DNA from: an uncultured virus (IMG/VR IMGVR_UViG_3300021373_000885)
Lineage: Duplodnaviria > Heunggongvirae > Uroviricota > Caudoviricetes
Direction: 5' to 3' (one strand)
IMG/VR virus record: IMGVR_UViG_3300021373_000885
DNA length: 64,000 bases
Shown here: positions 3,824 through 58,970 of the stretch, one piece after another
Numbering within the stretch: position 1 is the stretch's first letter
Layout of the letters: each line of letters opens with the position of its first letter
The notes under the pieces: model-generated
The model's database searches: none
Told to the model about the DNA's origin: nothing
What the model saw: the letters and a program-made list of their open reading frames with translations, nothing else
Made by a program: the position numbers and the translations under genes

Positions 3824-3831
3824 TTCACTCT

Positions 3832-4012: not shown

Positions 4013-4020
4013 GTTAACCA

Positions 4021-5592: not shown

Positions 5593-5620
5593 TACTGTCC
5601 CTTTAGTAGAGGAGCGCAAG

Positions 5621-6019: not shown

Positions 6020-6264
6020 TGTCAGATAATTTTGTTCCAATCGGTGACGTAGCGGATAAGTTTAGTGTATCTAAACACACAGTTAGGCAGTGGTTACGGC
6101 AAGGTAAGATACCTGCTGACCTGTATGTTAAGATCGGTAACACTTATCGTTACAACCTTCAAGGGATTGAAAACGCTTTTTTGAGTACCAATAAAGATAC
6201 GGTAGTTGGAGAAGCTGTCAGTGACTTTGAGTTTGGCACTGATATGCTAGATGAGGATTTCTAG
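6019..6264 (+). CDS. helix-turn-helix DNA-binding protein (MerR/excisionase-like)
   Basis: IGDVADKFSVSKHTVRQWLRQGKIP...KIGNTYRY. Confidence 0.85.
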   Translation: MSDNFVPIGDVADKFSVSKHTVRQWLRQGKIPADLYVKIGNTYRYNLQGIENAFLSTNKDTVVGEAVSDFEFGTDMLDEDF

Positions 6265-6923: not shown

Positions 6924-6934
6924 GGTAAATAGTT

Positions 6935-7636: not shown

Positions 7637-7716
7637 TCCCAAAAACTAGCTAGCTTTATGCGAAAAGGGGGCAACCGCCCCCCTGCTATCTCTACCCTCG
7701 GAACTAGGAATGTATT

Positions 7717-10778: not shown

Positions 10779-10816
10779 ACTCCCCTTTGTTCCGAGGCAT
10801 TGGGGAGTTTTTTTTA
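10779..10816 (+). terminator. rho-independent terminator at the convergence of the replication and structural arms
   Basis: ACTCCCC...GGGGAGT stem followed by a T run. Confidence 0.7.
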
Positions 10817-27400: not shown

Positions 27401-30400
27401 GAGCCCATTCTGCTAAATCGTCTGCCCCAACTTCACCATCACCATTGTAATCATACGTTAGGTCTGCAGGGATTAACCCCTCACTCATCATCAATAAATA
27501 GTCACGTTCTGCCGCGACCTCTTTACCAAGATCAAAATCCTCGGTATAAGCCGGGAAATAGACGTCTAATATGTCAGTCTTTATGGCTGCAGCTGTAGCG
27601 TTTGTAGTAAAGTTTTGCAGCTCTACAAGTTTGTCATTTATGTTAGTCTCTAATACCGCTAAAGCAAGGTCTCTATCTATACCTTGTAGTTGCATAGCAT
27701 TGTATATGTCCGCCTGAATACCGCTTGGCGCTCCCACTACTACTTCAACTTTATCAGTGCTTGGGTCATCGTCGTGGTCACGTAATTCTGTAGCAAATAG
27801 AGGCTGCCCAGTTACCTCATCTCGTAATACATTCCCATCAACGTCGTATTGGAATACAGGAGCCTTACCAAATGAATCTGCTATTCCTTGTATCTTTTCG
27901 TCAATCGTTCCTGTTAGGGCGGTCTCAAATTCTGCAAAAGTTGCATAGTCCCCTAGTATATCCTCCACTGCTTTTTTCGCATCTTGACCTGCTGCAGTAG
28001 CGTTTTCGCTAGCTGTTATAGCATCACCAACTAGCGCATATAACCCAGTGGCTACATCAGTCGCTGTTGCGGGAGTACCTAAATTAGTCGCAAGTCCCAG
28101 TAGTGTTGCTTCTAAGTCATCTGGTATCTTATTAGCTAATTCTGTTATAGCGCCTTCTAGGGCGGTTGTATCAAAATCAATATCTAGGTTACCTAGTATT
28201 TCGTATATGCCAGTTGCAGGGTTAGCATCTGTACCATCTCCCGGATCACCCACTAGGTTTTTTATTTCGGCAATCGCTACGTCTTGCAGTACGCCTTGCG
28301 CAGTTAGTTCACCTAGTAGTCCAGTGCCATCGTCTTGGTACACACCATCTTCAAAAGTTCCAGCCGTCCCAATCTTGTCTGTTATGTATGCAGTAAGGCT
28401 TTCAGGGTCTCCGTCACCAAGACCTATCTGAGTTTTTAGGTCTTCTAATATCTTAAACACACCCTCTGGAACTACAGCATCAGGGTCACCAATTATGGTT
28501 TTTAGCTCACTAGAAACTTCACTACTTATAGTCCCATCGGCTACTAATTTATCTACTATAGCCTCAGCAAAGTCAGACTGAACAGAGTCTTTCTTAAATT
28601 GGTTTGCAACAGCAGTTTCAATTTGAACTTGTAGTATGCCACTATTAGTGGGGTCGTTTATAAGCGCATCCACTACTTGTTGAGGCGTAGCGCTAGGGTC
28701 ACGCGCCAACAGCGTTTCTATATCCTGCTGCAACTTCAATAAATCTTGACTGTTCATACCTAGTGATCCACCTATTTCGTCTATTATACCCGTAGGTTCA
28801 TGTTTTGAGGCATCGTAATTTTCTAGTGCTGTCTGCTCTCTCAGCGGTAAATTAGCTATATACGCGTCTACATCGGCTTCTGATATAGCATTGTCATTGT
28901 TATAGTCAAACGTGCCAGACAAGACCGCCTCATCTCTGGCTATAGCTCTTATGTGTTCTATTATGTCATAGTGTTGGGCACTAGTGTAACCCGTACCAAT
29001 AGCTTGTTCTCCGTAGGTATACACTAAATAGTTTTCTGCCATATCTACTGGGTCTGATGAACCTGCCTCAATCGCCGCCTTTACCCAAGGAGAGTCAGAC
29101 TTACTTTGCATAAACTCGGTTACAGCACCTTCTGGTATGGCTCCCTGCATTCCCGCATCAACGAACAACTTTCTAGCTTCGTCCGCTGTAAGGTAACTAA
29201 GGTCATCTCGTTGGTTTCCTACATCTATTTTTATTATGCCAATGGCTTGCTCTATGGGGTCTGTTGAATCGGGGTCTTGAATTGTAGCCCTAGACCCGCC
29301 GAGAAAGTTTTCTAGGTACTTGTTAAAACTTGTAGTCGACGATAGTTCTCGTATGTCTGAGTTAGATAGTAGAGCCGAAGTGAATACATTTCCTGTATAC
29401 CCAGAAGTCCCCATGTCGTCAGAACCGCCGCCACCTGTAGGGTAAAATGGGGGTGGGGTAGTAAGTCCGTAAGTGACAGCCGATGTAGTGCCCCCAATCA
29501 ATGCACCTACAACACCGTTTTCTATAATGTTGCCTTCAACATCTCTATCAGTAACCCCGGCATCATATAGCATCTGTTCGGTGAAGCCCGCCACATAGGC
29601 TTCCTGTACAAACTCTGTTAAAGACTCTTTTGTAACTACAGTGGCTAAATCTTCGACCCTATCACTTAGCTCATACAATATGTCGTTAGTGCCTTTACTA
29701 AGTACGCGGTTGTCTAGTGCAAAGGCACCAAACGGTGCAGTGGCGCCTAATATGACTATTGCTTGTGTGCCAGCACGTATAGCCATTTCTTTTGCTTTAG
29801 CGTCAATATCACCTTCAAACCCGATTCTTTCTAACTCAGACGCAACTTCGTTGTATGTGCCCACGGCAGTTTCACCAAAGGCTTCCGACAATTCAAGTGT
29901 TGCGTTAGCCCCTACACTAGCAGTGGAGCCCAATGCCTCCGCTATGTCCTTGCCTAATGACTTAGCAGTTACATTAGTTACTTGTTTGCCCACAAATCCA
30001 GATAGACCAAACGTCATAAGTTGGGGAACTAGCTCATCTCCAAGGAAGTACCCCAAAAACGCATCAGGTTTATCGTAAAGTTCACCAAAAATTGCTTTAG
30101 CCTTGTCAACAGCGCCAGTCGCGGCAGCTATGTTTGCGTGCATCTCGGCGGTGTCTGCAACTAGTTCGTCGCTTAGAAAGCCCTGTGCATACTGGTCTAT
30201 CTGGTTGTGTATGTTAACGTAGTCATTATTAAATATTGCGTCTACGTCTTCCTCTGTTGTTAACAACGTTTCTTGGAATTCTTTTTGCGCGAGTTCGTTT
30301 GCTTTCTCAACGTCTTTACCCTCTGCAACCGCCCTCCTAAAAGCGCCATCCCTTGCAGCCATAGCTGGCATGGTTTTTATCCACGCTTTCATTGCAGCTA

Positions 30401-33400
30401 ACCCTGAAGCTACAAAAGAACCAATTTTTGTGGGGGCTCCTACTACAAAATTAGCTTGGAAATCTACGTTATCTTTTGCTTTCTGTATGTTGCTTACTAA
30501 CTTGTTATAGGCTTTTTGCTCACTCTCATTATCGAACGCCCTTTGGCCGGGGTTATTTTTTAGTTTCCCTGCGAAATGACCGGGTTCATGACCCTGTTCT
30601 ATTTCCCATGCAGCTAGAGCGTCTTCTGCGTCAGTTACCATTTTTTGCGCCCCTTCCATCCATGTTTCTGCAACACGTAGTGCTAGGGGTTTGTCTAAGT
30701 CTGATGGTACGTAACCATCATCCATTTTTTGTTCTAACTCTTTTAGGTAGGTTAACTCTTCCGCTTCAGGGTGGTTTTCTTCCAACATGTCAATATGTAA
30801 GGATAACGCCTGCTTATCATCTAAATTATTTAAAACTGCTAACGTAGCTGTAGGGTCTGTTTTAATACTAGACATTAAATCTAGTGCCATCCCTTTAGAC
30901 TCATAAACCCTACCACTTTCCAATGGCGCCGTGCCGTCATCATTTAATTTATATCGCTCAGTGCCTGACTCATTGTATTGATAAGTTACAAACTTTTGCT
31001 CTGAATCACTCCATTCAGTATAAGTAAAGCCATCGCCACCAAAAGTCGCTGCTCCGTCGGGGTTTATATTGAAGTTAAAACCACTTTGGTCGAATAAACG
31101 TGTGTCTGAATCATAGCCCTCGTTAATTAGGTCGTTTAGATAATCACCTATTTGGTTAATGTTAGCCTCTTGTATCTTTATATCAAGCGGGGTTATAGCT
31201 TCAGCCACAACTTCGTCAGCATGTATCCTCGGTTCAGCGAAGAAGTCAACAATACTCTTACCATCAAGCGTACCTTTGGTAAGTAATTCATCGTTATATG
31301 CTTGTAGTCTTGATAACTTGTCTGTCCCCCCAGTAGTGGCGGAGTTTGTATAGGCGAGGAAGCGCAAAAAATCTTGGCTCAACTTTTGCAAAGATTCTGG
31401 CGTGTGTCTATGTATAGTTACTCCCATAGCATCAAATACACTAGTTAGAATCTTAGTAGCTTGTGCGCTGTAAAGAGCGTTATAGTCTTCGAGGGTGGTG
31501 GGTTCCCCTGCAGCTAGATCTTCAATAAACAGCTTCGCAATATCTTCTTTTGTATCGGTTGCTTCGAGAGACGCGCCACGCGCCATTGCAAGATTGAGGT
31601 ACTCAACATAGTCAAAGTCTGGGTTTAACTGCTCTAGAGTTGCTACGTAAAGATTATCAAATTCTGGCTGTAGTCTAAGATCGCCTGCGGCAGTTTCGGC
31701 AGTTAGGGTATTTCTTGCGCTGGTAAGCTCCGCTTTTGTATTATTGTATGCTTGAGGTATAGCGTTTATTTCAGCGGTTAATGTATTTATTTGTTGTATT
31801 ATTGTGGGTGCGGCAGAGACGTATTGGCTGTTAAACGTTTCGTAGTTATTCACATCAGCTTCAGTGGCGCCCGGCTCAGTTGCTAACCTAAACAGGCGCG
31901 CACGTTCATCTTTCATGTCGTCCAAATCCTTTTGGTATTTATCTCGCTCTTTAAGTTTATCTGCGTACTGGTCGTCGTACCCATCTAACTCGTTTTGTAG
32001 GTCAACAGTTTCACCGTATTTTCCAGTTATCTTATCGCTAAAGTCTTTTATAGCATCTACAAGTGCATCCCCATCACCACTATCAACTAGCTTTTTAATC
32101 GCGGCGACTGATGCGTTGGCTATGGTGTCTAGAAATACACGTCCCGGGGCTGGCCCATCGCCTATGGCAGCGCCTACTGCGTTTCTTACAGCCTGCGTTA
32201 AAATTGGGAGTGGTATGGCATCCGTTACATCGGAGTCTACCTTACTTACAGCATCCATAGTTACTAGGTTTTTAGTAAATATGTTTTGGCGTTGTTGTAA
32301 TGTAGTGTCACCACCAGCTAGTAGCTCTAGACCTATAGCCTCTTTTAAAGAATCTTTAACGCCGTCACCTAGTTCATCCCACGTAGCTTTACCTGCTTCA
32401 CCTATGCTATCTACAAACTTATTAACTGAGTCCTCGAAATTCTCACTAACTCCGGGAATTTCACTTATGTTAGTAAATTTACTCATCCCCGATACTACGG
32501 TATCCTTTAGCGGTTTAAATACCACTTCGTTTAATTTGTCTACTGTAACATCCAATGCAGCCTGAACACTGCCTAGAGAGTCCATAACCGTATCTGTAGA
32601 TTGTTTAATTATTTCAGAAAAATTTGTTGCCTCGTCTATCTCTTCTAACATATCCATAATGTCACCGAACGCCTCTTGGAACGCAGAGTCCTCAAGGTCG
32701 ATGTCTAATATAGTGTCTAGCCCGTCTTGCAAGTCCCCTACTAGCGTTTTAATGAAGGTTTTCGCTGCAGCAAATGTATCGTCTCCCATATCCTCAAACA
32801 AATCTACGACTCGACTACCTACTGCCCCAGCGGCGGCTTCTTCAAAAGGTACGCCCCTTACTACCTGAGTTGTTACATCAAATATATCGTCCATGAGGTC
32901 GTCATTTATCTTTGACGTGTCGAGTCCCAGAGCATCCAGTCCTGATTCAAAATAGTCTTGACCAAAACCATCTAACAGTATGCCTATAGCATCATTTTCG
33001 TTCTTCGCCTTTGCAGCATTTATGACCGTCATGGTCTGTTTATAGTTAAGACTTCCAAACCCTACATCAGATATAGCCATGTCATAAGCGGTCTGGTACG
33101 CTACGTCACCCATACTAACTACAGTTGTCCCTACAAAACCATCGGCTACTGCCTCCGCCTCAGCAGCTTCACGAGCAGCCTCACCTGCTTTTTCGGCGTC
33201 TGCAGTTGTAGCGGGCTTTTTCAAGTTGCCACTAAGTTTAGCAGCGGAGACGCCTAGGCTAAGATAATCACCTAGGTGTAAAGTTTCCCCTACCGCGGCC
33301 CTAAATGCGGTAAACATAACATTTACAGCGGGGTTTATAGACGCTAATATTCTTACAAACGGGTTGTTCCATATTGCCTCCGAGGGTGGTTTTTCCCAAT

Positions 33401-35603
33401 ACATGGGCTGCTCTACCCACACCATAGTGTACGACCCCACGGGAGCATCTCCCTTAGACAGGTCGTAAAACCACCCTTCTCCCCTATTCTGCTTCTGCGT
33501 GTACGTGCCATGTGAACCCTCAAGAGTCAACTCATCGTTACCAACAGCAAAATAGTCGTACTCTGGCATTTCCCCCTCAAAATACTTTTGGCTTGTGGAA
33601 CGCGTCTGAAAGTTTTGGCCCGATATTTGGTGGCCGTTTATCGTGCCTATAGGTTCTGTCGTAAGGAAATCTTGACTAAGGTCGTTCTCCGGCATTTTCA
33701 TGTACAAGCGCGTAGGGTCAAACCAAAGGTAATGAGGCTCGTCTTCCCCCCACGCTTCGTTGCCGTTCAGCTCGTCAGGACTAAATTTTATTCTGGAACC
33801 GTTAAGTTTTACGTGTAAGTCCCACAAGTCTTTCTCTTGTGCGCTACGGGTATCATTTCCTTCGGGGGGCTCTTTTAGGGCAACGTTTTGGTTGTCCCTT
33901 AAATCGTAGTATTTATCTCTATCTGCAATAGTAAACCCTCCTATCTCAGTTTCCTGATACAGAGGTAGCTGCGCTTCTAGTAACTCTTCAAGCCATGCCG
34001 TTTGGTATATACCCCAACCTACTACTTCAGCGTCAAACTCTATACCACCTACGGGAACCCCAGTCGCGCCATTTATAAGTTCTGCATTTAGTGAACCAGA
34101 CTGAAAATAGTTCATGCCGGGAGTGTAATTGTTTCCAGCGCTGTCTCTACTCATACTACTAAGCACACTTTGGCCGTATGTATTTGAATACCCCGCCATA
34201 TCATAGTTAGGGTCACGATCCATTGAAAAATTATCGCTGTCCTTGGGGTGCGCATTCGCAATAGCATCCCTCACCCAAAGATATACCGTTTCTTTATCTG
34301 CCCAGTTATCTATTAGGTTTCGGTGACTAGCCCAATCTTTTATTTCATCTAGTACGGCATTTGCCGCCGCCTCCGCGGTGTCTTCACCAACGTCGTCAAA
34401 TGATGATTCACCCAACAATAGGGGCACTTCTGCCAATTTTAACCTATGCAAAGCGTCTCGCTGCAGCCAAGTCATATCATTAGGGTTAGCTTGATATGCG
34501 GCAAGCGCATCGGCTAGCTCGTTTAGGTAGTTTTTAGCTGAATTTTTATTGTCCCAAGTAACTCTTCCATTAACCGTTAGGTTCTTGTCCGTAGTTAAGC
34601 CACGTATTACTTCAGGGTCAACCCCAAGAATGCCTGTCTCGTGTTCTAGTATGACTTCTCTAGTTAACGCCCTAGCAAATACGTCTAGCATTTTGGGGTC
34701 AGCGCCGTATGTTTGTATTTCTTTTGTGTTCGCGTCTCGCTGCTGCCACTTCTTTCTGAGGTGGGCAGGCATACCTTGCATGATTTCGTCCGCTACGTTA
34801 AACCCACTCCTAAGCGCTATGTCCATATACAAGGCGCCAATTTCTTCTAAAGGAATGTCAGTATGTACGCCTTCTACGTATTCTGGGGGTAGGGGTTCTG
34901 GCAGACGTTCAACATCAGAGCCCTCTATAAGGGGCATACGCTTATCAAACATCTGATAGAGTGATATAGGACTTCCTACAGAATCTCGCCCCATCATAAT
35001 TTCAAAACTTTCAGATTGACTTCCGTGACCCCCGTATGCATCCCCTGTGGTATATACCCGAAGGAACCGGTCAAGAAGCACATCTATGTTGTCTGGGTCT
35101 AGGGAGAGGTGACCCTCGGAAATGCTTCCATACTGCCAATTTAGATAACCAAAGACATCTGCGCCGCCTTTAGAGTCGGGGTTAAAAGCCCAAGATGAGC
35201 TAGTCTTTCCGTCAACAGTCCAAGAGGTTCCCTCCTCTTCGTATAGTCTATGTTTCGCGGATCGCGGGTCTGTCCAAGTCCCTGTATCGCGTATAGACTT
35301 ATAACCTTCTATTATTTCGTCTTCTGTAAGAGGTAAGTTATACCCTTGAAAACGAAAAGTATCGCGGATAGTTTCTGCCCCAGTAGTATATAGAGTAGGA
35401 GATGCTGAGAATGAGGTATCATACTTATCATTACGCCACCCCATTGCGCCATCTTCTTTAATCCCTATAGTAACACCTATCCGTCTAAGAACAGGTTGGC
35501 CCAAAGCGTTTAACAGCACGTCTTCTTTATTGTTACCTTTCGTTACGTACTCAAACCCAGAAGGGGCCGATCGGATGCGATAAATTGATATTGTTTGGCT
35601 CAT
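21411..35603 (-). CDS. giant acidic virion-associated protein (4730 aa) with a ~150-aa repeat array
   Basis: Uninterrupted 14,193-nt ORF, TAATG-coupled to the next gene. Confidence 0.8.
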   Translation of the reverse strand: MSQTISIYRIRSAPSGFEYVTKGNNKEDVLLNALGQPVLRRIGVTIGIKEDGAMGWRNDKYDTSFSASPTLYTTGAETIRDTFRFQGYNLPLTEDEIIEGYKSIRDTGTWTDPRSAKHRLYEEEGTSWTVDGKTSSSWAFNPDSKGGADVFGYLNWQYGSISEGHLSLDPDNIDVLLDRFLRVYTTGDAYGGHGSQSESFEIMMGRDSVGSPISLYQMFDKRMPLIEGSDVERLPEPLPPEYVEGVHTDIPLEEIGALYMDIALRSGFNVADEIMQGMPAHLRKKWQQRDANTKEIQTYGADPKMLDVFARALTREVILEHETGILGVDPEVIRGLTTDKNLTVNGRVTWDNKNSAKNYLNELADALAAYQANPNDMTWLQRDALHRLKLAEVPLLLGESSFDDVGEDTAEAAANAVLDEIKDWASHRNLIDNWADKETVYLWVRDAIANAHPKDSDNFSMDRDPNYDMAGYSNTYGQSVLSSMSRDSAGNNYTPGMNYFQSGSLNAELINGATGVPVGGIEFDAEVVGWGIYQTAWLEELLEAQLPLYQETEIGGFTIADRDKYYDLRDNQNVALKEPPEGNDTRSAQEKDLWDLHVKLNGSRIKFSPDELNGNEAWGEDEPHYLWFDPTRLYMKMPENDLSQDFLTTEPIGTINGHQISGQNFQTRSTSQKYFEGEMPEYDYFAVGNDELTLEGSHGTYTQKQNRGEGWFYDLSKGDAPVGSYTMVWVEQPMYWEKPPSEAIWNNPFVRILASINPAVNVMFTAFRAAVGETLHLGDYLSLGVSAAKLSGNLKKPATTADAEKAGEAAREAAEAEAVADGFVGTTVVSMGDVAYQTAYDMAISDVGFGSLNYKQTMTVINAAKAKNENDAIGILLDGFGQDYFESGLDALGLDTSKINDDLMDDIFDVTTQVVRGVPFEEAAAGAVGSRVVDLFEDMGDDTFAAAKTFIKTLVGDLQDGLDTILDIDLEDSAFQEAFGDIMDMLEEIDEATNFSEIIKQSTDTVMDSLGSVQAALDVTVDKLNEVVFKPLKDTVVSGMSKFTNISEIPGVSENFEDSVNKFVDSIGEAGKATWDELGDGVKDSLKEAIGLELLAGGDTTLQQRQNIFTKNLVTMDAVSKVDSDVTDAIPLPILTQAVRNAVGAAIGDGPAPGRVFLDTIANASVAAIKKLVDSGDGDALVDAIKDFSDKITGKYGETVDLQNELDGYDDQYADKLKERDKYQKDLDDMKDERARLFRLATEPGATEADVNNYETFNSQYVSAAPTIIQQINTLTAEINAIPQAYNNTKAELTSARNTLTAETAAGDLRLQPEFDNLYVATLEQLNPDFDYVEYLNLAMARGASLEATDTKEDIAKLFIEDLAAGEPTTLEDYNALYSAQATKILTSVFDAMGVTIHRHTPESLQKLSQDFLRFLAYTNSATTGGTDKLSRLQAYNDELLTKGTLDGKSIVDFFAEPRIHADEVVAEAITPLDIKIQEANINQIGDYLNDLINEGYDSDTRLFDQSGFNFNINPDGAATFGGDGFTYTEWSDSEQKFVTYQYNESGTERYKLNDDGTAPLESGRVYESKGMALDLMSSIKTDPTATLAVLNNLDDKQALSLHIDMLEENHPEAEELTYLKELEQKMDDGYVPSDLDKPLALRVAETWMEGAQKMVTDAEDALAAWEIEQGHEPGHFAGKLKNNPGQRAFDNESEQKAYNKLVSNIQKAKDNVDFQANFVVGAPTKIGSFVASGLAAMKAWIKTMPAMAARDGAFRRAVAEGKDVEKANELAQKEFQETLLTTEEDVDAIFNNDYVNIHNQIDQYAQGFLSDELVADTAEMHANIAAATGAVDKAKAIFGELYDKPDAFLGYFLGDELVPQLMTFGLSGFVGKQVTNVTAKSLGKDIAEALGSTASVGANATLELSEAFGETAVGTYNEVASELERIGFEGDIDAKAKEMAIRAGTQAIVILGATAPFGAFALDNRVLSKGTNDILYELSDRVEDLATVVTKESLTEFVQEAYVAGFTEQMLYDAGVTDRDVEGNIIENGVVGALIGGTTSAVTYGLTTPPPFYPTGGGGSDDMGTSGYTGNVFTSALLSNSDIRELSSTTSFNKYLENFLGGSRATIQDPDSTDPIEQAIGIIKIDVGNQRDDLSYLTADEARKLFVDAGMQGAIPEGAVTEFMQSKSDSPWVKAAIEAGSSDPVDMAENYLVYTYGEQAIGTGYTSAQHYDIIEHIRAIARDEAVLSGTFDYNNDNAISEADVDAYIANLPLREQTALENYDASKHEPTGIIDEIGGSLGMNSQDLLKLQQDIETLLARDPSATPQQVVDALINDPTNSGILQVQIETAVANQFKKDSVQSDFAEAIVDKLVADGTISSEVSSELKTIIGDPDAVVPEGVFKILEDLKTQIGLGDGDPESLTAYITDKIGTAGTFEDGVYQDDGTGLLGELTAQGVLQDVAIAEIKNLVGDPGDGTDANPATGIYEILGNLDIDFDTTALEGAITELANKIPDDLEATLLGLATNLGTPATATDVATGLYALVGDAITASENATAAGQDAKKAVEDILGDYATFAEFETALTGTIDEKIQGIADSFGKAPVFQYDVDGNVLRDEVTGQPLFATELRDHDDDPSTDKVEVVVGAPSGIQADIYNAMQLQGIDRDLALAVLETNINDKLVELQNFTTNATAAAIKTDILDVYFPAYTEDFDLGKEVAAERDYLLMMSEGLIPADLTYDYNGDGEVGADDLAEWAQGLTSAEATAENNYNTWAANKQGITPAIETLRAETDTGFKLVDSRLTSIESNVKKEITDNVNLAIGSPSSPLVGATGIYAAIEAGDTSITDILGSAGEDGSGVLRNLELLGLDAQEIKTFLETNLGSPAVSEDDATDTNPAKPATGVYALVDANTEQYKGLVDDYKILTNNYEVMSSNYSALLESANEQFGLLNNAIGQFPTLNDAGEYTGGGGLRLELFNQGLNINQINELLGSEGDEDSIVGKLKALQNGIDKAASTTDITGVLGEISALSTIVGSPAQPATDTEPAQTASGIYEALANVESTLKSTFNAELKKVTDAVNALSLGPDGTIQSSIRELAGQLDRLTEQSEITGVGQANTEVPASPLMLATIYAGMRQGEGFMVDRSYENFADPRMGMFHFGGSTDLGEAINFLEQYVNDNLSGEDLDAFEYFVDNESERVAAMVASDDPRIGLAKEVLDNGILSGLNASQIYIDQLDALNASLVGSPSDIYKDYGPTGLYEVIADAENTIEILRGELAAQGVDVDTINATLGSEDDENSIIGRIEALKTATESNTGKYEDLLQDYKDISDDYSGLADDYKGLVRNYYKKTQDISNNIGVLPTWDAEQQRYVGGSGIRKELFDQGLSLDQINTLLGSATDEASIMGKLEALKSVPGDITTVAGDIAALNTIIGEPKDSSLEGSKNSGIFLAIEDLSTTTASNTEKYESLLQNYSDISEDYSGLVDDYNTAVGEANTALGEVKTAIGELPTFNDETKEYEGGSGIRKELFDQGLSLDQINTLLGSAEDPDSILGALEELTNTDFASEYKLKLVQNDVNNIKASTTQLKNLIGKADSNQQKEGAQPSGIYKEIANLAATTASNTEKYETLLQNYSDISGSYDTLSTSIDSTLTNINTAIGELPTWNAETKAYEGGSGLRKELFDQGLTLDQVNAVLGSEDDADSILGRLKTISGATEDSAKKADLDVLSNLIGSPAVSEDDATDDNPAKAADGIFGEIEALSNTTASNTEKYETLLEDYGDVSNKYDALAEDYKTLADNTANKITAIDNTIGELPTDDDGDGVFEGGSGLRLELFNQGLGIDQINAILGSEDNPDTVVGKLKSIADATDLYAKQTDLSALSSIIGSPAVSVFDATDDNPAKAADGIFKAIDELATTTASNTEKYEDLLQNYSDITERYATVLDATKHVVLANAQAVSNIQQILGYVPDINDDGSLRGGAGLSLKLYEQGLTIDQINAVLGSEDDENSIIGRLNAIDSSTDTFAKQADIAALTAIIGSPAVSEDDATGDTPAKAADGIFKAIDDLATATISNTEKYEGLLQNYSDISGQYNTLTEDYKTLADSTANKIAEIDSTIGELPTFNDETQEYEGGSGLRLELFNQGLGIDEINAVLGSAEDENSIVGKLETLISSVNSAASSTDLQTASGNIANLATIVGVKDSDLETEGDQSTGLYGEIQTLAATTASNTEKYETLLQDYSDISGQYNTLAEDYKTLADSTADKITAIDNTIGELPTDNGDGTFSGGSGLRLELFNQGLGIDEINAVLGSAEDENSIIGRLAALQNATSSAASSSDLNSVTGSLDTLATIVGVKDSDLETEGDQSTGLYGEIQNLANVTASNTEKYETLLQNYSDISGRYETLAESTAEKIAAIDSTIGELPTDNGDGTFSGGSGLRLELFNQGLGLDEINALLGSEDDPASIVGRLSAITNATSAAVTASDLTPINNALNDLTAAIGSPAQPATDTEPAQSASGIYAELAGLVSAEVSSEISEIGTSLDDIAALLGKPTNLLTEEDVNLVSTYLAEEEVAYNALYDVNNDGTFDVEDERLIGNAFESGDYSEIADSNFGHATGMFAIQEQNQATIEQQQQDLVAAQQQYELDLAAEREAAVEAQREMQLEIESNIEQQLEQQAEQETEDKVMEALQAPGRKVTTKPGRKAEIKGIYDFESIFQDEEQESFYGAASPYGDNFLNDILFPQQRAKGGIIKDKTDEILKIIGDK
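22150..27050 (-). repeat. coding repeat array, about 9-10 units of about 440-465 bp
   Basis: Recurrent GGSGLRLELFNQGLxxDxINxxLGSxxD and ASNTEKYExLLxxYSDIS. 22581-22655 and 23040-23114 are near-identical (459-nt period). Confidence 0.9.
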
Positions 35604-54631: not shown

Positions 54632-56173
54632 CTAATAATATCCGACACTTCTTCTTTGGAAGTATTTAGTTTCTTCTGGCTCATCTGAAGGTAGCCGTAT
54701 AAATCCGCCCTGCCTAAACCGCATAAGCGCCATAATTGTAGAATCCACCAAGTCATCATTACTCATAAATGGGAATCCCGCTATTTCTTCTATAACTTCT
54801 TCTGCCCAGCGCGTCTGTGGTACCCAAACAAGTTCAGATGCGATAATATCAGATACAGAATTTAGTCTTGCTAGTTTATCACCAGATCCACGGTGAGGGG
54901 TATACTCTTGTATAACAAGCCCCATTCTCCGCATTTCTTGATACAATGCAACACCTGAACTCTTTTTCTCTACAATAAACGCGTCAGGATCCCACATCGT
55001 ATATTGTTCCATAGCCAATTCTTTTAGCTCAGGAAACTCTAAACGCTCTTTTATACTATTTAATAGTATGATGTTATGTGCATTTGTCTCTTCATTGAAA
55101 AATACACCCCAAGTAGTTAGCGCAGTGAAGTCAGCCCTATTATGTTTTTCTGCTGCAGAATCCAGTGACATAATAATATACTCACACATAGGAGGATTTT
55201 CTTTCTCCCATATCTGCCACCACTCTCTTTTTACAATAGCCGCTTCTTCTGCTGTTGGCTGCTGCTGATACTGTGCATTCCACTGGAACAACGGCATTGA
55301 CGCTTTTGTACGTTCCAACGCCGCCATATCAAAAAACTCAGGCCACAACGGTTTCTCTATAAGTTCTCCAGTTTCACTATCTTCTACCTCAAGAACTGCA
55401 GGAAACTCCACAACTTCATACTGGTCAGATTTGTCATTCTGACTCATATCCTTAACTACACGGCCCGTTAGATCATCCATGTGCCATCTAGTTTGGATAA
55501 TTGCTACCCTACCACCGGGCATCAAACGTGTACGAGCACCAAATGTGAACCATTCGTACGCTTTTTCAAACACACTAAAGTTACCATTAATAACATCTTG
55601 CTCAGAATGTGGGTCATCTACCAATAATAGGTGTGCACCACGACCAGCTAGTGCCGATCCTACACCACATGCGTAGTATTCACCGCCCATATTGGTGTTC
55701 CAACGCCCTGCAGACTTAGAATCTGTAGCTAATTGTACTGTAGGAAATATGTCTTTATAGTCCTGTAAACCCAGTAAATTACGCACTTTTCGACCAAAAT
55801 CTACCGCTAAATCGGTCGTATGCGACACCATCATCACTTTTTTGTCTGGATTTCGCCCTAAAAACCACGCTGGGAAGAAAATTGACACTAATTGTGACTT
55901 TCCGTGCCTAGGAGGGATGTTTACACAGGTACGATCCTTGGTTCCATTCTCTAAACCCATCAACATATCCGCCAAAATGCGGTGATGTTTACCTACAATG
56001 TAATCTGGCTGCATTCTTTTGCAAAATTCTATCAAATCATCGTACGCATTCTTATTTTTTCTACGGGAAGCTAACTCATCGACCATTTTATTGATCTCAG
56101 TAACCTCTTCTTCAGTAAAACTATCAAGATTGTCCAACATTTGCTGGATGTCTTCTTGTGTGAATTCACTCAT
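54632..56173 (-). CDS. terL: terminase large subunit
   Basis: NIPPRHGKS Walker A, LLLVDDPH Walker B, IQTRWH, SLDSA, NDDLVDS nuclease motif. Confidence 0.95.
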   Translation of the reverse strand: MSEFTQEDIQQMLDNLDSFTEEEVTEINKMVDELASRRKNKNAYDDLIEFCKRMQPDYIVGKHHRILADMLMGLENGTKDRTCVNIPPRHGKSQLVSIFFPAWFLGRNPDKKVMMVSHTTDLAVDFGRKVRNLLGLQDYKDIFPTVQLATDSKSAGRWNTNMGGEYYACGVGSALAGRGAHLLLVDDPHSEQDVINGNFSVFEKAYEWFTFGARTRLMPGGRVAIIQTRWHMDDLTGRVVKDMSQNDKSDQYEVVEFPAVLEVEDSETGELIEKPLWPEFFDMAALERTKASMPLFQWNAQYQQQPTAEEAAIVKREWWQIWEKENPPMCEYIIMSLDSAAEKHNRADFTALTTWGVFFNEETNAHNIILLNSIKERLEFPELKELAMEQYTMWDPDAFIVEKKSSGVALYQEMRRMGLVIQEYTPHRGSGDKLARLNSVSDIIASELVWVPQTRWAEEVIEEIAGFPFMSNDDLVDSTIMALMRFRQGGFIRLPSDEPEETKYFQRRSVGYY

Positions 56174-56732
56174 CTACCGTCTCCGCGTCGATTACGACTG
56201 CGTCGTCATCAACTTCAGGCGGATTTATGAGCTTTTCTAGCTTTTTTCGTAGGTTTTTCTTCAAATCATCTGTTGATTGGTGTGTAACTGTAACTTCTGA
56301 CTTCTCAGCGAACAAACTTACATCAGAAATTTTACCCAATAACTCCAATGCGCGAAGCCTTATCTTAGCATCAGGGTTTTCTGTCTCTAAAATCAGCTTA
56401 TTTGTTATCAAATGTCGCACTGAGGTAGCAGATTCGACCACAGAACGGCCAAATTCACTCAAAATGTTGTTTGTAAGTACCAAAGATGCCGGTGTTAACT
56501 CTGCAACACGCGATTTTGTAGCTTTTTTGGATGTTTTTTCGGGATCTTCTGCGTATGACATGCTCAACATGCTCGCTACAGCCTCATCTTCAGCTGTAGG
56601 AGTCAAATCTAACCCTTCTTTCTCTAATTCTTTTGCCGTTACGGTAGCAGCACGCGCACGGACTGTTAAATCCACGGTAGGATCGTCGTCATACACTGGT
56701 ACGCCATTCTCTGGCTCGAGCTTTATCGTCAT
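56166..56732 (-). CDS. terS: terminase small subunit (putative)
   Basis: Directly upstream of and overlapping TerL; RLRALELLGK motif. Confidence 0.65.
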   Translation of the reverse strand: MTIKLEPENGVPVYDDDPTVDLTVRARAATVTAKELEKEGLDLTPTAEDEAVASMLSMSYAEDPEKTSKKATKSRVAELTPASLVLTNNILSEFGRSVVESATSVRHLITNKLILETENPDAKIRLRALELLGKISDVSLFAEKSEVTVTHQSTDDLKKNLRKKLEKLINPPEVDDDAVVIDAETVDE

Positions 56733-56901
56733 ATTTTAGTCGCAGGTTATTAACCGTAGGCGTATATATACCAAAAAGTTATAAAGAGCGCAAGTCATTA
56801 CCAAAAATCATACAAAAAATAAATAATATACATGTGTTGGTATGACCTGCTTTGGTATATAATGGCGGCATTCCCAAAACACACTACCAACTGGAGATTC
56901 T

Positions 56902-56991
56902 ATGTATCCGGATATGTTCCTATTGTCTGCTTGTTTAGTTACTAGCTTAGGGCTTGTTTGCATTTACTTTGAAGATGATCTTCCCTTTTAA
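56902..56991 (+). CDS. 29-aa hydrophobic micropeptide with SSB C-terminal-like tail (MYPDMFLLSACLVTSLGLVCIYFEDDLPF)
   Basis: GGAG SD at 56893-56896, TATAAT at 56858-56863, TAA at 56989-56991. Confidence 0.55.
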   Translation: MYPDMFLLSACLVTSLGLVCIYFEDDLPF

Positions 56992-57394
56992 AGGATCTAA
57001 GTAGACTCATACCTTCTAACTCTTCTTCCCTTGTAAAATCCGAGGCGGTTAACCGTAGCTGCGTTTTTCCTTCTAGCTCTGCAACAGGTTTTACAATCAT
57101 ACGTTCTATATCTAATGCCACAAATACATAGAAATCAGCAATGTGAGCAGCACGTAAGTTAAAAGCATACCCGGAAAAAGCGGGTCGTTTGTTATGTTGA
57201 TTGAAATGGCAGATGTTTGATGATTTGACTTGCACTGTGAATAACGATTGGTCTAACGATTGGCACCACAAGTCTATGCCGGATCGGTCTACATGGTGAC
57301 ACTCTATACCGTACTTCTCCAGCTTATATATGGCAAAGAACTCCCCGACACGTCCAACGTGACTCGTTTCTCCCTCTACCAAAAGCCGCCCCAT
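56942..57394 (-). CDS. PD-(D/E)XK endonuclease-like protein
   Basis: GRVGEFFA...GIDLW...VQVKSS...DFYVFVAL. Start at ATG 57394 is more plausible than 57544. Confidence 0.75.
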   Translation of the reverse strand: MGRLLVEGETSHVGRVGEFFAIYKLEKYGIECHHVDRSGIDLWCQSLDQSLFTVQVKSSNICHFNQHNKRPAFSGYAFNLRAAHIADFYVFVALDIERMIVKPVAELEGKTQLRLTASDFTREEELEGMSLLRSFKREDHLQSKCKQALS

Positions 57395-57560
57395 ACGTAA
57401 CCTATTCAGATTTGGATCACTTCTAGAAAGTAACACACAAAAAATTTTTTGCAAGGCCTTTTTTAAACAAGGTGGGGGGTTTTCAGAAAAATACGATTTA
57501 TTTGAGTAAATTAGTATATATACATCTGTGGGACTCCTAAACACAAAACGCGGGGGGTGG

Positions 57561-57580
57561 GGGGTGTAGCGCTACACCCC
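57561..57580. promoter_or_regulatory. perfect 20-bp palindrome GGGGTGTAGCGCTACACCCC, first of about 6 related sites
   Basis: Perfect inverted repeat about 30 bp upstream of an early promoter; variants at 58548, 59097, 59607, 60679 and 62343. Confidence 0.7.
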
Positions 57581-57610
57581 ATAATAGAGGGAACATGTTC
57601 CTATAGGATC

Positions 57611-57639
57611 TTGTACAAATGTGTAGGATTGTGTATAAT
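57611..57639 (+). promoter_or_regulatory. sigma70 early promoter
   Basis: TTGTAC-17 nt-TATAAT. Confidence 0.75.
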
Positions 57640-57715
57640 GGTGACTATCAACAGCGCTGATGCTGTTGTGGCTATAGGGCGAGCCATTACGCCCCATTAA
57701 ATAGGAAATACTAAA

Positions 57716-58399
57716 ATGAGAAATTATACATATGATCTAGCAGGTAGAGTAAACAGCACTATCATTGATTCAATTAATAACCATGCTGATGGAATCAAAG
57801 CAGTAGAGCAAGCCACTACTGACTTACAATCCACCGCAATTGCTAACTATCAGCTATTGCAATCGCAGGGCTTTATACCTACTGATTTACTCAGCCCCGA
57901 TAAACAGTCTAAAGGTACATGTACTGAAGCTGAGTGGGTTTCTTTGATGTGCGCTAGAGCTGAGAAAATGTGGGGCAGTAATAGCGTTAAGTTTAAATCA
58001 GTGTGGCGATATATGAACGACCGCGACGGTATGACAGGCGCTGAGAAAAAGACTGCTAAGGAAAGCCACGTTAAATCAGTAAGGCGCTCACTCAAAGTAA
58101 TATCAAAGGGCTATGCTGACTGGATTGCTGGTGGTAGTAAGTCGGCTGAAGAGGTACAGTCTGCCCCGCGCCAAGTAACACCTACTGAAGAGTTCATAGC
58201 CAAGCGCTTGAAATCAATTAAGAGTCGAGCTGATAAATCGGTTGATGAATTGAAAGCCAAGTATGACGATTTTGATATAGCAGTATTTAATCAATTACTT
58301 GAGCCAGTAGCAATGTATATTGATCGACTGGGCAAAGCCAAGCCCAACAGTAAGCAGGTTAGTTTTGATTCTAAAGGTAACCGTAGAAAGAAAAAGTAA
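57716..58399 (+). CDS. early hypothetical protein (227 aa), monocistronic
   Basis: Own promoter, AGGA SD and terminator. Confidence 0.8.
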   Translation: MRNYTYDLAGRVNSTIIDSINNHADGIKAVEQATTDLQSTAIANYQLLQSQGFIPTDLLSPDKQSKGTCTEAEWVSLMCARAEKMWGSNSVKFKSVWRYMNDRDGMTGAEKKTAKESHVKSVRRSLKVISKGYADWIAGGSKSAEEVQSAPRQVTPTEEFIAKRLKSIKSRADKSVDELKAKYDDFDIAVFNQLLEPVAMYIDRLGKAKPNSKQVSFDSKGNRRKKK

Positions 58400-58439: not shown

Positions 58440-58455
58440 GGCTTAAAAATTGGGC

Positions 58456-58540
58456 TATCGAAGCCAGTTCCCAAGCGTGGCGTTGAGTCTATGTACGACT
58501 TCAGCGTATCGAAGCCAGTTCCCAAGCGTGGCGTTGAGTC
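58456..58540 (+). repeat. 34-bp perfect direct repeat, 2 copies, 17-nt spacer
   Basis: TATCGAAGCCAGTTCCCAAGCGTGGCGTTGAGTC at 58456-58489 and 58507-58540. Confidence 0.9.
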
Positions 58541-58547
58541 CAAGCAA

Positions 58548-58970
58548 GGGGTGTAATGTTACCCCCCCAACCCGCACCGTTACTGCAATGTAACCTTTTA
58601 TGGCTCTTTTGTAACCTAATGTTACCTTTTTTTTAGGCTAAAAGTTACAAAATAGTTTTGTGTGCGATTGTTAGCAGAGGTGAAGGGTATTGATACAACG
58701 ATTGTGTGCGTTTATGTACTTTCTTACTATCTATCTATCTAAATCTTTATAATGTTACCTTTTTAAAAAAGTATATATATCCCCCTGTTCGAGGGCTCTC
58801 TGGCAGATTTCTTCCCACCATCACAACACACTTCAAAATATCACCTTTCAATTGTCGCAAAAAAGGTTACATTGTTACATTACGCACCACCAGTGGTCTG
58901 TAGCCAAAAAGCAAAAGTTACAAATGGGTTACAATACAAGGTTTTTGTAACACTCAAAAAGTTACACCTT
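58548..58970. other. AT-rich GTTAC/GTAAC iteron-like region, putative replication origin
   Basis: 13 GTTAC/GTAAC pentamers in about 410 bp of non-coding DNA with A/T tracts. Confidence 0.5.

What the first reader, a model, noticed from the sequence alone, without database searches (positions are those of the whole stretch)
56858..56991. Unannotated 29-aa hydrophobic micropeptide ending in an SSB C-terminal tail mimic (FEDDLPF)
Seen: on the + strand, against the direction of the late arm, TATAAT (56858), a GGAG SD and ATG 56902 give MYPDMFLLSACLVTSLGLVCIYFEDDLPF*. This is about 18 hydrophobic residues followed by an acidic Pro-Phe terminus. Known: the bacterial SSB tail (E. coli DFDDDIPF) is the docking peptide for ExoI, RecQ, PriA, RecO, Pol III chi and RNase HI. 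Inference: a membrane-tethered decoy that could sequester host SSB partners or tether them to the membrane. The phage's own SSB ends in DDWDD and lacks this tail. The ORF partly overlaps the 3' end of the endonuclease gene in antisense.
Basis: partly seen in the sequence, partly recalled or inferred. Interest (0 to 1): 0.72.

Follow-up and report, generated by a model that had tools for sequence, protein, structure and literature searches.

The report
Phage membrane micropeptide with SSB-like tail
An uncultured marine phage carries a real, conserved gene for a 29-residue membrane peptide whose last six residues copy the docking tip of bacterial single-strand-DNA-binding protein, which may tether host DNA-repair enzymes to the membrane, though this is untested.

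Summary
ORF 56902-56991 (+) encodes MYPDMFLLSACLVTSLGLVCIYFEDDLPF, with TATAAT 44 nt and GGAG 5 nt before the ATG, and its last 50 nt overlap the 3' end of a minus-strand gene.

It is a real gene. A 29-30 codon ORF lies at this place in 63 of 75 related viral contigs that have enough flank. In each it has a -10-like hexamer, a Shine-Dalgarno site and an ATG, TTG or GTG start at fixed spacing. Its frame has no stops in 33 distinct copies; the other five frames have 35-78.

The tail is not a by-product of the antisense gene. Over the same 21 nt, pN/pS is 0.16 in the peptide frame and 1.79 in the nuclease frame. L-P-F never changes, and two nuclease-free loci keep it.

The neighbour folds like the PD-(D/E)xK homing endonuclease I-Ssp6803I and is patchily present.

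The tail fits the SSB C-terminal tip, and DDGLPF tips occur on true SSB-family proteins. The decoy function is not shown. Docking to E. coli ExoI got only weak support. The peptide has no K, R or H, so its topology is open, and 8 loci carry tail variants without P-F. The host is unknown.

Verdict: a new micropeptide family; the SSB-tip mimicry is plausible but unproven.

The parts
56858..56863 (+). -10-like promoter hexamer TATAAT, followed by a G+C-rich stretch (GGCGGC)
   Evidence: TATAAT or TACAAT lies 43-48 nt before the start codon in all 35 distinct upstream regions printed (33). No -35 hexamer was recognised.
56893..56896 (+). Shine-Dalgarno GGAG, 5 nt before the ATG
   Evidence: In relatives GGAG, GAGG or AAGG lies 5-8 nt before an ATG, TTG or GTG start.
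56902..56991 (+). Micropeptide gene, 29 codons plus TAA
   Evidence: The frame has 0 stops in 33 distinct copies, with pN/pS 0.44 and variation at the third codon position in 25 of 25 columns. Four clusters were called as proteins in the 1.84-billion representative library.
56917..56970 (+). Hydrophobic, presumably membrane-spanning segment (residues 6-23, FLLSACLVTSLGLVCIYF)
   Evidence: Alignments A1 and A2: Cys and Gly are invariant in the 22 LPF-type peptides and nearly invariant across all 25, and no member has K, R or H. The membrane location is inferred from hydrophobicity only.
56971..56988 (+). C-terminal hexapeptide EDDLPF, resembling the SSB C-terminal tip
   Evidence: This is the most constrained part of the peptide: pN/pS 0.235, and pN 0 for L-P-F. 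L-P-F is invariant in 20 distinct tails while its codons vary synonymously.
56942..57394 (-). PD-(D/E)xK homing-endonuclease-like gene (150 aa from ATG 57394); its last 50 nt overlap the micropeptide gene
   Evidence: AlphaFold2 model from alignment A3, mean pLDDT 83. Best PDB match is I-Ssp6803I, E 1.2e-7, then SPARDA nuclease domains. Weak DUF4365 hit, E 0.089. Patchy among relatives. The C-terminal residues 142-150 have pLDDT under 50.
57045..57072 (+). Terminator-like hairpin (GCGGTTAACCGTAGCTGC) plus T run, about 55 nt after the micropeptide stop; function uncertain
   Evidence: Found by the pattern scan, and it is the only helix kept in the centroid fold. It lies inside the nuclease coding sequence and its conservation was not shown.
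56166..56732 (-). terS-like gene, divergent neighbour, used as the anchor to fetch relatives
   Evidence: No Pfam or PHROG hit; the name rests on its position before terL.

Best explanation
SHOWN: 56902-56991 is a genuine protein-coding micro-gene. It belongs to a clade of uncultured marine tailed phages with a T7-like replication module. It has its own -10-like promoter element, a ribosome-binding site and an ATG, TTG or GTG start. It encodes a 29-30 residue peptide made of one hydrophobic helix-length segment followed directly by the acidic end [E/Q/D/G]-[D/E]-[D/G]-L-P-F. That end is the most strongly selected part of the peptide. Its conservation is independent of the homing-endonuclease-like gene whose 3' end reads through it on the other strand. 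INFERRED (leading mechanism, about 35%): the hydrophobic segment anchors the peptide in the inner membrane with the tail on the cytoplasmic face. There the tail acts as a copy of the SSB C-terminal tip. The terminal Phe with its free carboxylate, the Pro and the preceding acidic residues would dock into the tip-binding pocket of one or more SSB-interactome enzymes (such as PriA, RecO, RecJ, RecG or ExoI). This would hold those enzymes at the membrane and away from SSB-coated DNA. The phage's own Gp2.5-like SSB (ending DDWDD) does not use that tip, so phage replication would be spared.
For: Gene reality:
- The ORF with the LPF end is present in 55 of 79 loci fetched by terS similarity; one of these (L012) is frameshifted. 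Shorter-tailed homologues occur in 8 more loci. That is 63 of the 75 loci with at least 300 nt of flank.
- The -10 hexamer, SD and start codon keep fixed spacing.
- The frame has 0 stops in 33 distinct copies against 35-78 in the other five frames; pN/pS is 0.44.
- Gene callers produced 4 clusters of it, all ending in LPF.

Selection on the tail:
- pN/pS is 0.235 for the hexapeptide against 0.51 for the hydrophobic part; pN is 0 for L-P-F.
- Five synonymous codon variants (CTA, CTC, CCA, CCT, TTC) and no non-synonymous one occur in L-P-F. Each of the five changes the nuclease residue (E to V, E to G, R to M, R to K, K to R).
- Over the same 21 nt, pN/pS is 0.157 in the peptide frame and 1.79 in the nuclease frame.
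- Two nuclease-free loci (L068, L201) keep G-L-P-F. Between them the tail differs by three synonymous changes and an in-frame codon insertion.

Likeness to the SSB tip:
Sixteen are this family. Almost all the rest are ends of long soluble proteins.
- Of 85 such fragments, 19 match Pfam SSB, 16 DUF3127, 8 DUF669, 4 other families and 38 none.
- Three SSB-family fragments end in DDGLPF, so Gly before the Leu occurs in true tips.
- This ORF carries the only [LI]PF end among the 794 ORFs of the window, and the phage SSB ends in DDWDD.

Docking test: the peptide alignment against E. coli ExoI scored ipSAE 0.52, 0.52 and 0.00 in three runs, with 0.00 as the best of 3 controls. The verdict was 'weak support'. 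The mark was reached by 116 of 157 solved complexes and 2 of 215 mismatched pairs. At 0.60 or under, only 18 of those 157 and both mismatches reached it. The runs agree in at least 75% of contacts, and the partner's pLDDT is 23-42. An ExoI-SSB-tip complex has been solved (recalled), so the pass may be from memory. It shows likeness, not binding.

Context from papers:
- A phage SSB-like protein with a host-like C-tip is proposed to compete with ExoI (preprint 10.64898/2026.04.29.721553; abstract and passages read).
- Excess E. coli SSB sits at the inner membrane and may deliver PriA and RecG (10.1101/664532; abstract read).

RNA, weak: one 252-nt contig of a seawater metatranscriptome (X1) covers 56898-57102 plus 47 further letters that match relatives' 5' leader. 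The strand is unknown and DNA carry-over is possible.
Against: - None of the 25 aligned peptides has K, R or H. The positive-inside rule therefore gives no orientation, and the membrane potential would if anything favour export of the acidic tail to the periplasm (established principle, not tested here).
- The tip follows the hydrophobic segment with no linker. In SSB it sits on a long disordered linker.
- Eight of 63 loci with the micro-gene have tails without P-F...VEDLS in L052 and L069-L072...IAYDS in L065-L067. The tail is therefore dispensable or replaceable in sister lineages.
- Most members have Gly instead of the third acidic residue.
- The host is unknown. No cultured relative is closer than 46% in terL or 44% in portal. 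The host's tip and its set of tip readers could not be compared.
- ExoI was an E. coli stand-in and the support was weak.
- Translation and transcription of the + strand are not demonstrated.
- A conserved six-residue end could match one of many known short motifs by chance across a scan of this size.
Confidence: 0.35

Rival explanations
1. A small membrane effector whose SSB likeness is coincidental. The peptide acts through its hydrophobic helix: it depolarises the membrane, or modulates a membrane protein, as type I toxins and other small phage or bacterial membrane proteins do. It would serve host takeover or superinfection exclusion. The acidic end only sets topology, stability or oligomerisation.
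For: The hydrophobic segment with its invariant Cys and Gly is conserved. Lineages with ...VEDLS or ...IAYDS tails keep the helix, promoter and SD but not P-F. The gene converges on, and overlaps, an oppositely transcribed gene by 26-50 nt, which resembles type I toxin loci with cis-antisense control (recalled). Some type I toxins have a helix followed by an acidic tail (recalled).
Against: The tail, not the helix, is the most constrained part: pN/pS 0.235 against 0.51, with pN 0 for L-P-F. An invariant Pro and terminal Phe, kept through synonymous codon change, point to specific recognition rather than bulk charge. There is no match to any Pfam family of small toxins or holins; the best is Hol_Tox at E 0.84 in 1 of 25 peptides.
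Confidence: 0.3
2. The tail faces the periplasm. The peptide inserts with its N-terminus inside and its C-terminus outside, as a tail-anchored protein does. Its free hydrophobic-x-hydrophobic carboxy-terminus (L-P-F) is then read by a periplasmic PDZ-domain protease or by the outer-membrane-protein quality-control machinery. It would mimic the aromatic C-terminus of unassembled outer-membrane proteins and perturb envelope stress signalling.
For: The family has no positive residue, and the C-terminal flank carries 2-3 acidic residues plus the carboxylate. By the established effect of the membrane potential on acidic flanks, this favours export of that end (not tested). A terminal Phe with a hydrophobic residue at -2 is the generic PDZ class II pattern and the hallmark of proteobacterial OMP ends (recalled).
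Against: PDZ ligands usually tolerate any residue at -1, whereas Pro at -1 is invariant here across three codons, as in SSB tips. The acidic residues before L-P-F are also conserved (Asp nearly invariant), which fits the basic ridge of SSB-tip pockets better. No test of topology or PDZ binding was possible.
Confidence: 0.15
3. A membrane anchor for the phage's own replisome. The acidic, Phe-ended tail is read by a phage protein, as the acidic Phe-ended tails of T7 gp2.5 and gp4 are read by T7 DNA polymerase. This would tie phage DNA replication or the incoming genome to the membrane.
For: The phage has a T7-like module: family A DNA polymerase, Gp2.5-like SSB, primase-helicase and exonuclease.
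Against: The phage's own SSB and primase-helicase do not end in Phe: they end in DDWDD and ...EDAET. There is thus no sign that this polymerase reads a terminal Phe. The L-P-F end is the bacterial-SSB form, not the T7 form.
Confidence: 0.1
4. Not a gene. The ORF would be a by-product of constraint on the antisense nuclease gene's 3' end and on the divergent promoter region.
For: Both strands are conserved at the last codon and the stop: the nuclease's invariant Phe and following K/R lie opposite the peptide's Phe codon and stop. The peptide is at the lower size limit of gene callers. No proof of translation exists.
Against: Over the overlap, the nuclease frame has pN/pS 1.79 and the peptide frame 0.157. 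The length of the nuclease tail varies (26-50 nt of overlap) and it is modelled with pLDDT under 50. The ORF, its SD and its start persist where the nuclease is absent (L068, L201, L052 group). The 40 nt of the ORF outside the overlap are also open and selected.
Confidence: 0.03

Closest known systems
C-terminal tip of bacterial SSB (SSB-Ct; DDDIPF in E. coli, as given in the abstract of PMC5872125), and phage SSB-like proteins that carry a host-like tip (Bas52_0087, FDDDIPF; preprint 10.64898/2026.04.29.721553)
   Same: Both sit at the extreme C-terminus and consist of acidic residues followed by [I/L]-P-F with a free carboxylate. Tips reading DDDLPF, EDDLPF and DDGLPF occur on Pfam-SSB fragments in viral contigs.
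   Different: Here there is no OB fold, no ssDNA-binding domain and no disordered linker. The tip hangs directly on a hydrophobic helix in a 29-30 residue peptide. Most members have Gly in place of one Asp. Binding to any SSB partner is unproven.
SSB-tip-like ends on non-SSB proteins
   Same: The tip looks like a portable hook. In viral contigs the same end sits on DUF3127, DUF669, DUF968 and QSregVF_b fragments, and on 38 fragments with no family. Earlier unchecked notes of this scan report it on kinases, Mrr-like nucleases, a regulator and a 25-aa acidic microprotein.
   Different: All of those carriers are soluble. None is a membrane peptide. The earlier notes are leads, not evidence.
Type I toxins and other small hydrophobic membrane peptides (Fst/Ldr, TisB, Hok types; recalled)
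   Same: The size is about 30 aa, there is one hydrophobic helix, and some have an acidic tail. The gene converges on and overlaps an antisense transcript.
   Different: No sequence family match. No positive residues. The strongest constraint is on a specific terminal motif rather than on the helix. No antisense sRNA and no toxicity have been shown.
Acidic Phe-ended C-terminal tails of T7 gp2.5 and gp4 (recalled)
   Same: An acidic tail whose terminal Phe is the docking residue, in a phage with a T7-like replication module.
   Different: Those tails sit on the phage's own SSB and helicase. Here those proteins end differently, and the motif has the bacterial L-P-F form.
I-Ssp6803I, a PD-(D/E)xK homing endonuclease (for the overlapping neighbour only)
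   Same: Fold match at E 1.2e-7, TM about 0.6, 22% identity. A conserved D...Q-x-K signature. Patchy presence among close relatives.
   Different: I-Ssp6803I is intron-encoded (recalled), whereas this gene is free-standing. No activity or target site is known.

Membership tests
Proteins bearing a bacterial SSB C-terminal tip (SSB-Ct) | The extreme C-terminus ends in [I/L]-P-F, followed at once by the stop codon | tested here: met
   L-P-F-stop in the window and in all 20 distinct tails of the LPF-type loci. It is absent in 8 variant loci.
Proteins bearing a bacterial SSB C-terminal tip (SSB-Ct) | A run of acidic residues directly before [I/L]-P-F | tested here: met
   The window has E-D-D. Other members have E-D-G, D-E-G, Q-D-D, G-D-G or G-D-E-G. 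The tip D-D-G-L-P-F also occurs on 3 Pfam-SSB fragments.
Proteins bearing a bacterial SSB C-terminal tip (SSB-Ct) | The tip is carried on a disordered linker of an OB-fold ssDNA-binding protein | tested here: not met
   The peptide is 29-30 aa and the tip abuts the hydrophobic segment. No Pfam family matches. It is therefore not an SSB; at most it carries a copy of the tip.
Proteins bearing a bacterial SSB C-terminal tip (SSB-Ct) | The tip binds the pocket of SSB-interactome proteins | tested here: inconclusive
   against E. coli ExoI, ipSAE 0.52, 0.52 and 0.00, best control 0.00, verdict 'weak support'. The pass is possibly from memory of a solved complex, and ExoI was a stand-in host protein.
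Proteins bearing a bacterial SSB C-terminal tip (SSB-Ct) | The tip is exposed in the cytoplasm | not testable with these tools
   No K, R or H in any of the 25 peptides. No topology predictor or experiment was available.
Type I toxin-like small membrane peptides | Under 60 aa with one hydrophobic, helix-length segment | tested here: met
   mean Kyte-Doolittle value of 1.9-2.9 over the 20 residues before the tail hexapeptide.
Type I toxin-like small membrane peptides | Sequence membership of a described toxin family | tested here: not met
   A Pfam scan of 25 members gave nothing below E 0.03, and the weak hits are unrelated. PHROGs and PADLOC were not run on the peptide.
Type I toxin-like small membrane peptides | A cis-encoded antisense RNA that represses the toxin mRNA | tested here: inconclusive
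   The convergent nuclease gene overlaps the ORF by 26-50 nt. No small RNA was identified and no Rfam match was found. The strand of the one RNA-library contig is unknown.
Holins | A charged, usually basic, cytoplasmic C-terminus, and a place in a lysis cassette | tested here: not met
   There are no basic residues at all. The gene lies between terS and a homing-endonuclease-like gene. The phage's lysis genes were not located.
PD-(D/E)xK homing endonucleases (the neighbour, 56942-57394) | The PD-(D/E)xK fold with a D...(E/Q)-x-K signature | tested here: met
   Model pLDDT 83. Best PDB match I-Ssp6803I, E 1.2e-7. D41, Q55 and K57 are invariant or nearly so in 15 sequences.
PD-(D/E)xK homing endonucleases (the neighbour, 56942-57394) | Mobile, patchy distribution among otherwise collinear genomes | tested here: met
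   absent in L068, in L052 and L069-L072, and in L060 and L075-L080. Present without the micro-gene in L056, L058, L059, L062 and L074.

The most novel reading that the evidence does not exclude
A phage-encoded, membrane-anchored copy of the SSB C-terminal tip. This 29-residue peptide would hijack the universal docking code of the bacterial SSB interactome. It would park replication-restart, recombination or exonuclease enzymes at the inner membrane, the place where surplus SSB itself is reported to be stored. The phage would replicate with a Gp2.5-type SSB that does not use that code. This would be the smallest known interactome decoy and a new class of host-takeover factor.
Probability: 0.3. 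Interest if true: 0.85.

Novelty: new variant of a known kind. Interest (0 to 1): 0.6.

Why it matters
The SSB tip is a six-residue code read by a dozen or more replication, repair and recombination enzymes in nearly all bacteria. It is also being pursued as an antibacterial target (abstract of PMC5872125, seen in the listing).

Phage proteins with a host-like tip have so far been SSB-like proteins (preprint). A tip hung on a bare membrane anchor would show that phages also use the code without any DNA binding, purely to relocate host enzymes.

It would also be a minimal, easily synthesised tool to titrate the SSB interactome in vivo.

Whatever the function turns out to be, the case is a clean example of three things:
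- a micro-gene under 30 codons that standard annotation mostly misses;
- how to separate selection on two overlapping antisense frames;
- a free-standing homing endonuclease whose C-terminal extension simply reads through a neighbour.

Tried and rejected
- blastn of 56500-57700 against GenBank phages: no match. tblastn of a family peptide (P0005) against the same collection: no match. There is therefore no cultured carrier and no host.
- The window's own assembly is not held. The nearest record, G001, is a 25-kb fragment without this region.
I used the representative library instead.
- ESM Atlas: the sequence is held, but there was no usable look-alike.
- A genome-contig scan with terS found no relative in bacterial genomes, so no prophage or host clue.
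- My first degenerate DNA pattern was badly designed: it required a T in a Gly codon. It found nothing, not even the family itself, so it says nothing.
- I looked for a promoter class TATAATNNCGSC in the window. There were 11 matches at up to 1 mismatch against 7.24 expected, and only the micro-gene site was exact. No promoter family can be claimed.
- Rfam: no match in 56500-57800. The RNA fold of 56868-57110 is no more stable than shuffles, z = +1.2.
- Sequencing runs: all are contigs, so they give no strand and no ends. In the RNA library X1 only 56898-57102 is covered. The lack of cover elsewhere proves nothing, and the contig's extra upstream letters reach to about the -10 element. A simple fit to the predicted start site is therefore not given.
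- I considered that the invariant Phe and stop might be held by the nuclease's invariant Phe and K/R. This cannot be separated at those two codons in nuclease-bearing loci. The nuclease-free loci L068 and L201 keep them.
- Look-ups of this scan's earlier findings by place and by sequence returned nothing.
- PHROGs and PADLOC were not run on the peptide.
Full report
OBSERVATION. TATAAT lies at 56858-56863, GGAG at 56893-56896 and the ATG at 56902. The 29-codon ORF ends with TAA at 56989-56991 and encodes MYPDMFLLSACLVTSLGLVCIYFEDDLPF.

The ORF lies on the + strand at the point where the two gene arms diverge.
- To its left, on the minus strand, run a terS-like gene (56166-56732), terL (54632-56173; Terminase_6N/6C), the portal and the structural genes.
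- To its right, after one minus-strand gene (56942-57394), the + strand genes begin at 57716. They continue from 534 to 10524 with a family A DNA polymerase, an exonuclease, a helicase, a Gp2.5-like SSB and a primase-helicase.

The ORF's last 50 nt (56942-56991) overlap the 3' end of the minus-strand gene. It is the only one of 794 ORFs of 20 aa or more in the window that ends in [LI]PF. Shuffled windows give 0.01 acidic-[LI]PF ends each. That is rare per window but not across a large scan, so the case rests on comparative evidence.

IS IT A GENE? I fetched relatives by the neighbouring terS-like protein: 583 stretches of viral contigs encode a relative, and the best 80 were kept.
- Of the 79 loci with the terS start, 55 have an ORF ending L-P-F-stop at the same place, 200-485 nt from terS. 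One of them, L012, has a 1-nt deletion in a T run.
- Eight more have a homologous micro-ORF with a shorter tail: MIVYMIYFVIISLFAVAVEDLS in L052 and L069-L072, and ...GLALIAYDS in L065-L067.
- Twelve have none, and four have too little flank to tell.
- This includes relatives whose terS is only 73-77% identical and whose intergenic DNA no longer aligns by blastn.
- In every distinct copy a TATAAT or TACAAT hexamer lies 43-48 nt before the start. GGAG, GAGG or AAGG lies 5-8 nt before it. The start is ATG, TTG or GTG.
- The peptide frame has no stop in 33 distinct 75-nt cores, while the other five frames have 35-78. All 25 third-position columns vary against 11 of 25 second positions. pN/pS is 0.44.
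- A profile of 22 peptides found only four clusters among 1.84 billion representative proteins, all from this family and all ending in LPF.
- There is no Pfam family, no match in GenBank phages, no Atlas look-alike and no Rfam match.

So this is a lineage-restricted, previously unnamed micropeptide family.

IS THE TAIL JUST THE SHADOW OF THE ANTISENSE GENE? The antisense gene is conserved too, and its C-terminus (F-K-R-E-D-H-L...) is the reverse complement of E-D-D-L-P-F-stop.

The neighbour is a PD-(D/E)xK protein.
- An AlphaFold2 model from 15 homologues has mean pLDDT 83.
- It best matches the homing endonuclease I-Ssp6803I (E 1.2e-7), then the nuclease domains of SPARDA systems.
- Its presence is patchy, as expected of a free-standing homing endonuclease.

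Four results show that the constraint lies on the peptide frame.
- (i) In the codons for G-L-P-F all observed variants are synonymous for the peptide: GGT/GGC, CTT/CTA/CTC, CCC/CCA/CCT, TTT/TTC. Each changes the nuclease residue, often radically (D to G, E to V, E to G, R to M, R to K, K to R).
- (ii) Over the same 21 nt, pN/pS is 0.157 in the peptide frame and 1.79 in the nuclease frame. For L-P-F, pS is 0.32 and pN is 0.
- (iii) The nuclease's read-through tail varies in length (26-50 nt of overlap), and its last nine residues are modelled at pLDDT under 50.
- (iv) Two loci without the nuclease (L068, L201) keep ...G-D-(E)-G-L-P-F. Between them the tail differs by three synonymous changes and one in-frame codon.

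One reservation remains. The nuclease's invariant Phe and the following Lys/Arg lie opposite the peptide's Phe codon and stop. At those two codons the frames cannot be told apart in nuclease-bearing loci.

Within the peptide, the tail hexapeptide is the most constrained part, at 0.235 against 0.51 for the hydrophobic segment.

IS THE TAIL LIKE AN SSB TIP? I scanned viral contigs for DNA that encodes hydrophobic-x-hydrophobic-[DE]-D-[DEG]-[LF]-P-F-stop.
- Sixteen are this family. Nearly all the others are ends of long soluble proteins with low-complexity linkers.
- Of 85 distinct fragments of 80 aa or more, 19 match Pfam SSB, 16 DUF3127, 8 DUF669, 3 QSregVF_b, 1 DUF968 and 38 nothing.
- Three of the SSB-family fragments end in DDGLPF, so the Gly of most micropeptides lies within natural tip variation.

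In phage DNA, then, this end is overwhelmingly the signature of SSB-type tails, and it is portable between protein families. In this sample the micropeptide is the only carrier that is a hydrophobic peptide.

Earlier, unchecked notes of this scan also report tip-like ends on kinases, nucleases, a regulator and a soluble 25-aa peptide. I take these as leads only.

DOES IT BIND AN SSB PARTNER? Only one test was possible. The peptide alignment was folded with E. coli ExoI.
- It scored ipSAE 0.52, 0.52 and 0.00, and the best of three controls scored 0.00. The verdict was 'weak support'.
- The mark was reached by 116 of 157 solved complexes and 2 of 215 mismatches. At 0.60 or under, only 18 of the 157 and both mismatches reached it.
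- The runs agree in at least 75% of contacts, and the partner's pLDDT is 23-42.
- An ExoI-tip complex is in the PDB (recalled), so the score may reflect memory of that likeness. ExoI is also a stand-in, since the host is unknown.

I count this as a small nudge, no more.

WHAT SPEAKS AGAINST THE DECOY.
- None of the 25 aligned peptides contains Lys, Arg or His. There is thus no positive-inside signal, and the membrane potential would tend to drive the acidic end outward. If the tail is periplasmic, the SSB model is dead. A PDZ or outer-membrane-protein mimic becomes the natural reading, though the invariant Pro at -1 fits SSB tips better than generic PDZ ligands.
- The tip has no linker.
- Two sister lineages (8 of 63 loci) keep the promoter, the SD and the helix but end in ...EDLS or ...YDS.
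- Expression evidence is thin. One 252-nt contig of a seawater RNA library covers 56898-57102 and runs on upstream into a relative's leader. Contigs carry no strand, and DNA carry-over cannot be excluded.

MECHANISM AND ODDS. That this is a translated micro-gene whose C-terminal motif is read by something specific I hold at roughly 0.9 and 0.7. I rank the mechanisms as follows.
- About 0.35: a cytoplasm-facing, membrane-tethered SSB-tip copy that sequesters tip-reading host enzymes. This fits the report that surplus E. coli SSB is itself stored at the inner membrane with partners such as PriA and RecG (10.1101/664532, abstract). It also fits the proposal that a phage SSB-like protein with a host-like tip competes with ExoI (10.64898/2026.04.29.721553, passages).
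- About 0.3: a helix-driven small membrane effector with a coincidental tail.
- About 0.15: a periplasmic C-terminal ligand.
- About 0.1: an anchor for the phage's own T7-like replisome.
- About 0.03: not a gene.

COMPARISON AND NOVELTY. The peptide is not an SSB, because it has no OB fold and no linker. It is not a member of any described small-toxin or holin family. What it shares with SSB is the tip alone.

My searches of the held literature found no paper describing an SSB tip on a membrane peptide. The terms were 'SSB C-terminal' + mimic + phage, SSB-Ct + membrane + small protein + phage and SSB + C-terminal tip + decoy + bacteriophage. Papers in subscription journals are not covered.

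I therefore class it as a new variant of a known kind: a new carrier for a known docking motif, and a new family of phage micropeptides. Interest is 0.6, because the gene and the selection on its tail are solid while the striking function remains untested.

Noticed in passing
window 56942-57394 (-): A free-standing PD-(D/E)xK gene that folds like the homing endonuclease I-Ssp6803I and like SPARDA nuclease domains. It is patchily present among collinear relatives, and its C-terminal extension reads through the neighbouring micro-gene by 26-50 nt.
   Followed up: yes
window 21411-35603 (-) and 10814-17485 (-): Two giant ORFs of 4730 aa and 2223 aa lie in the structural arm. Neither has a Pfam family above threshold; the only hit is a sub-threshold GcrA-like stretch at residues 3353-3386 of the larger one.
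   Followed up: partly
window 57440-57570; also L076, L079, L052 next to terS: A conserved non-coding element: an A6T6 run, then GGTGGGGGG, and further on GGGGGGTGGGGGGTG. Similar A/T-run plus G-run elements lie directly beside terS in relatives that lack both the micro-gene and the nuclease. It may be a genome end, an origin or a regulatory region.
   Followed up: no
window 56750-56759 and 57050-57059: The 10-mer TTAACCGTAG occurs twice, exactly 300 nt apart. One copy is in the terS leader. The other is in the terminator-like hairpin after the micro-gene.
   Followed up: no
window 57612-57639 (+): A sigma-70-like promoter (TGTACA, 16 nt, TATAAT; 10 of 12 matches) lies ahead of the + strand ORF 57716-58399, which has no family match.
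   Followed up: no
window about 58440-58560: A short direct repeat: both strands' ORF translations show a repeated unit (STPRLGTGFD twice on the minus strand, SKPVPKRGVES twice on the plus strand) just after ORF 57716-58399.
   Followed up: no
loci L083-L200 (viral contigs): The SSB-tip-like end ...[DE]D[DEG][LF]PF sits not only on Pfam-SSB fragments (19 of 85). It also sits on DUF3127 (16), DUF669 (8), QSregVF_b (3) and DUF968 (1) fragments, and on 38 fragments with no family. The tip looks like a widely re-used module in phage proteins.
   Followed up: partly
L012:1322-1394: One relative has a single-base deletion in a T run inside the micro-gene. The deletion shifts the frame but restores ...FFEDDLPF at the end. 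It may be a sequencing error or a pseudogene.
   Followed up: no
window 6935-7636 (+): The Gp2.5-like SSB ends in ...IVDDWDD, an acidic tail with an internal Trp instead of a terminal aromatic residue.
   Followed up: no
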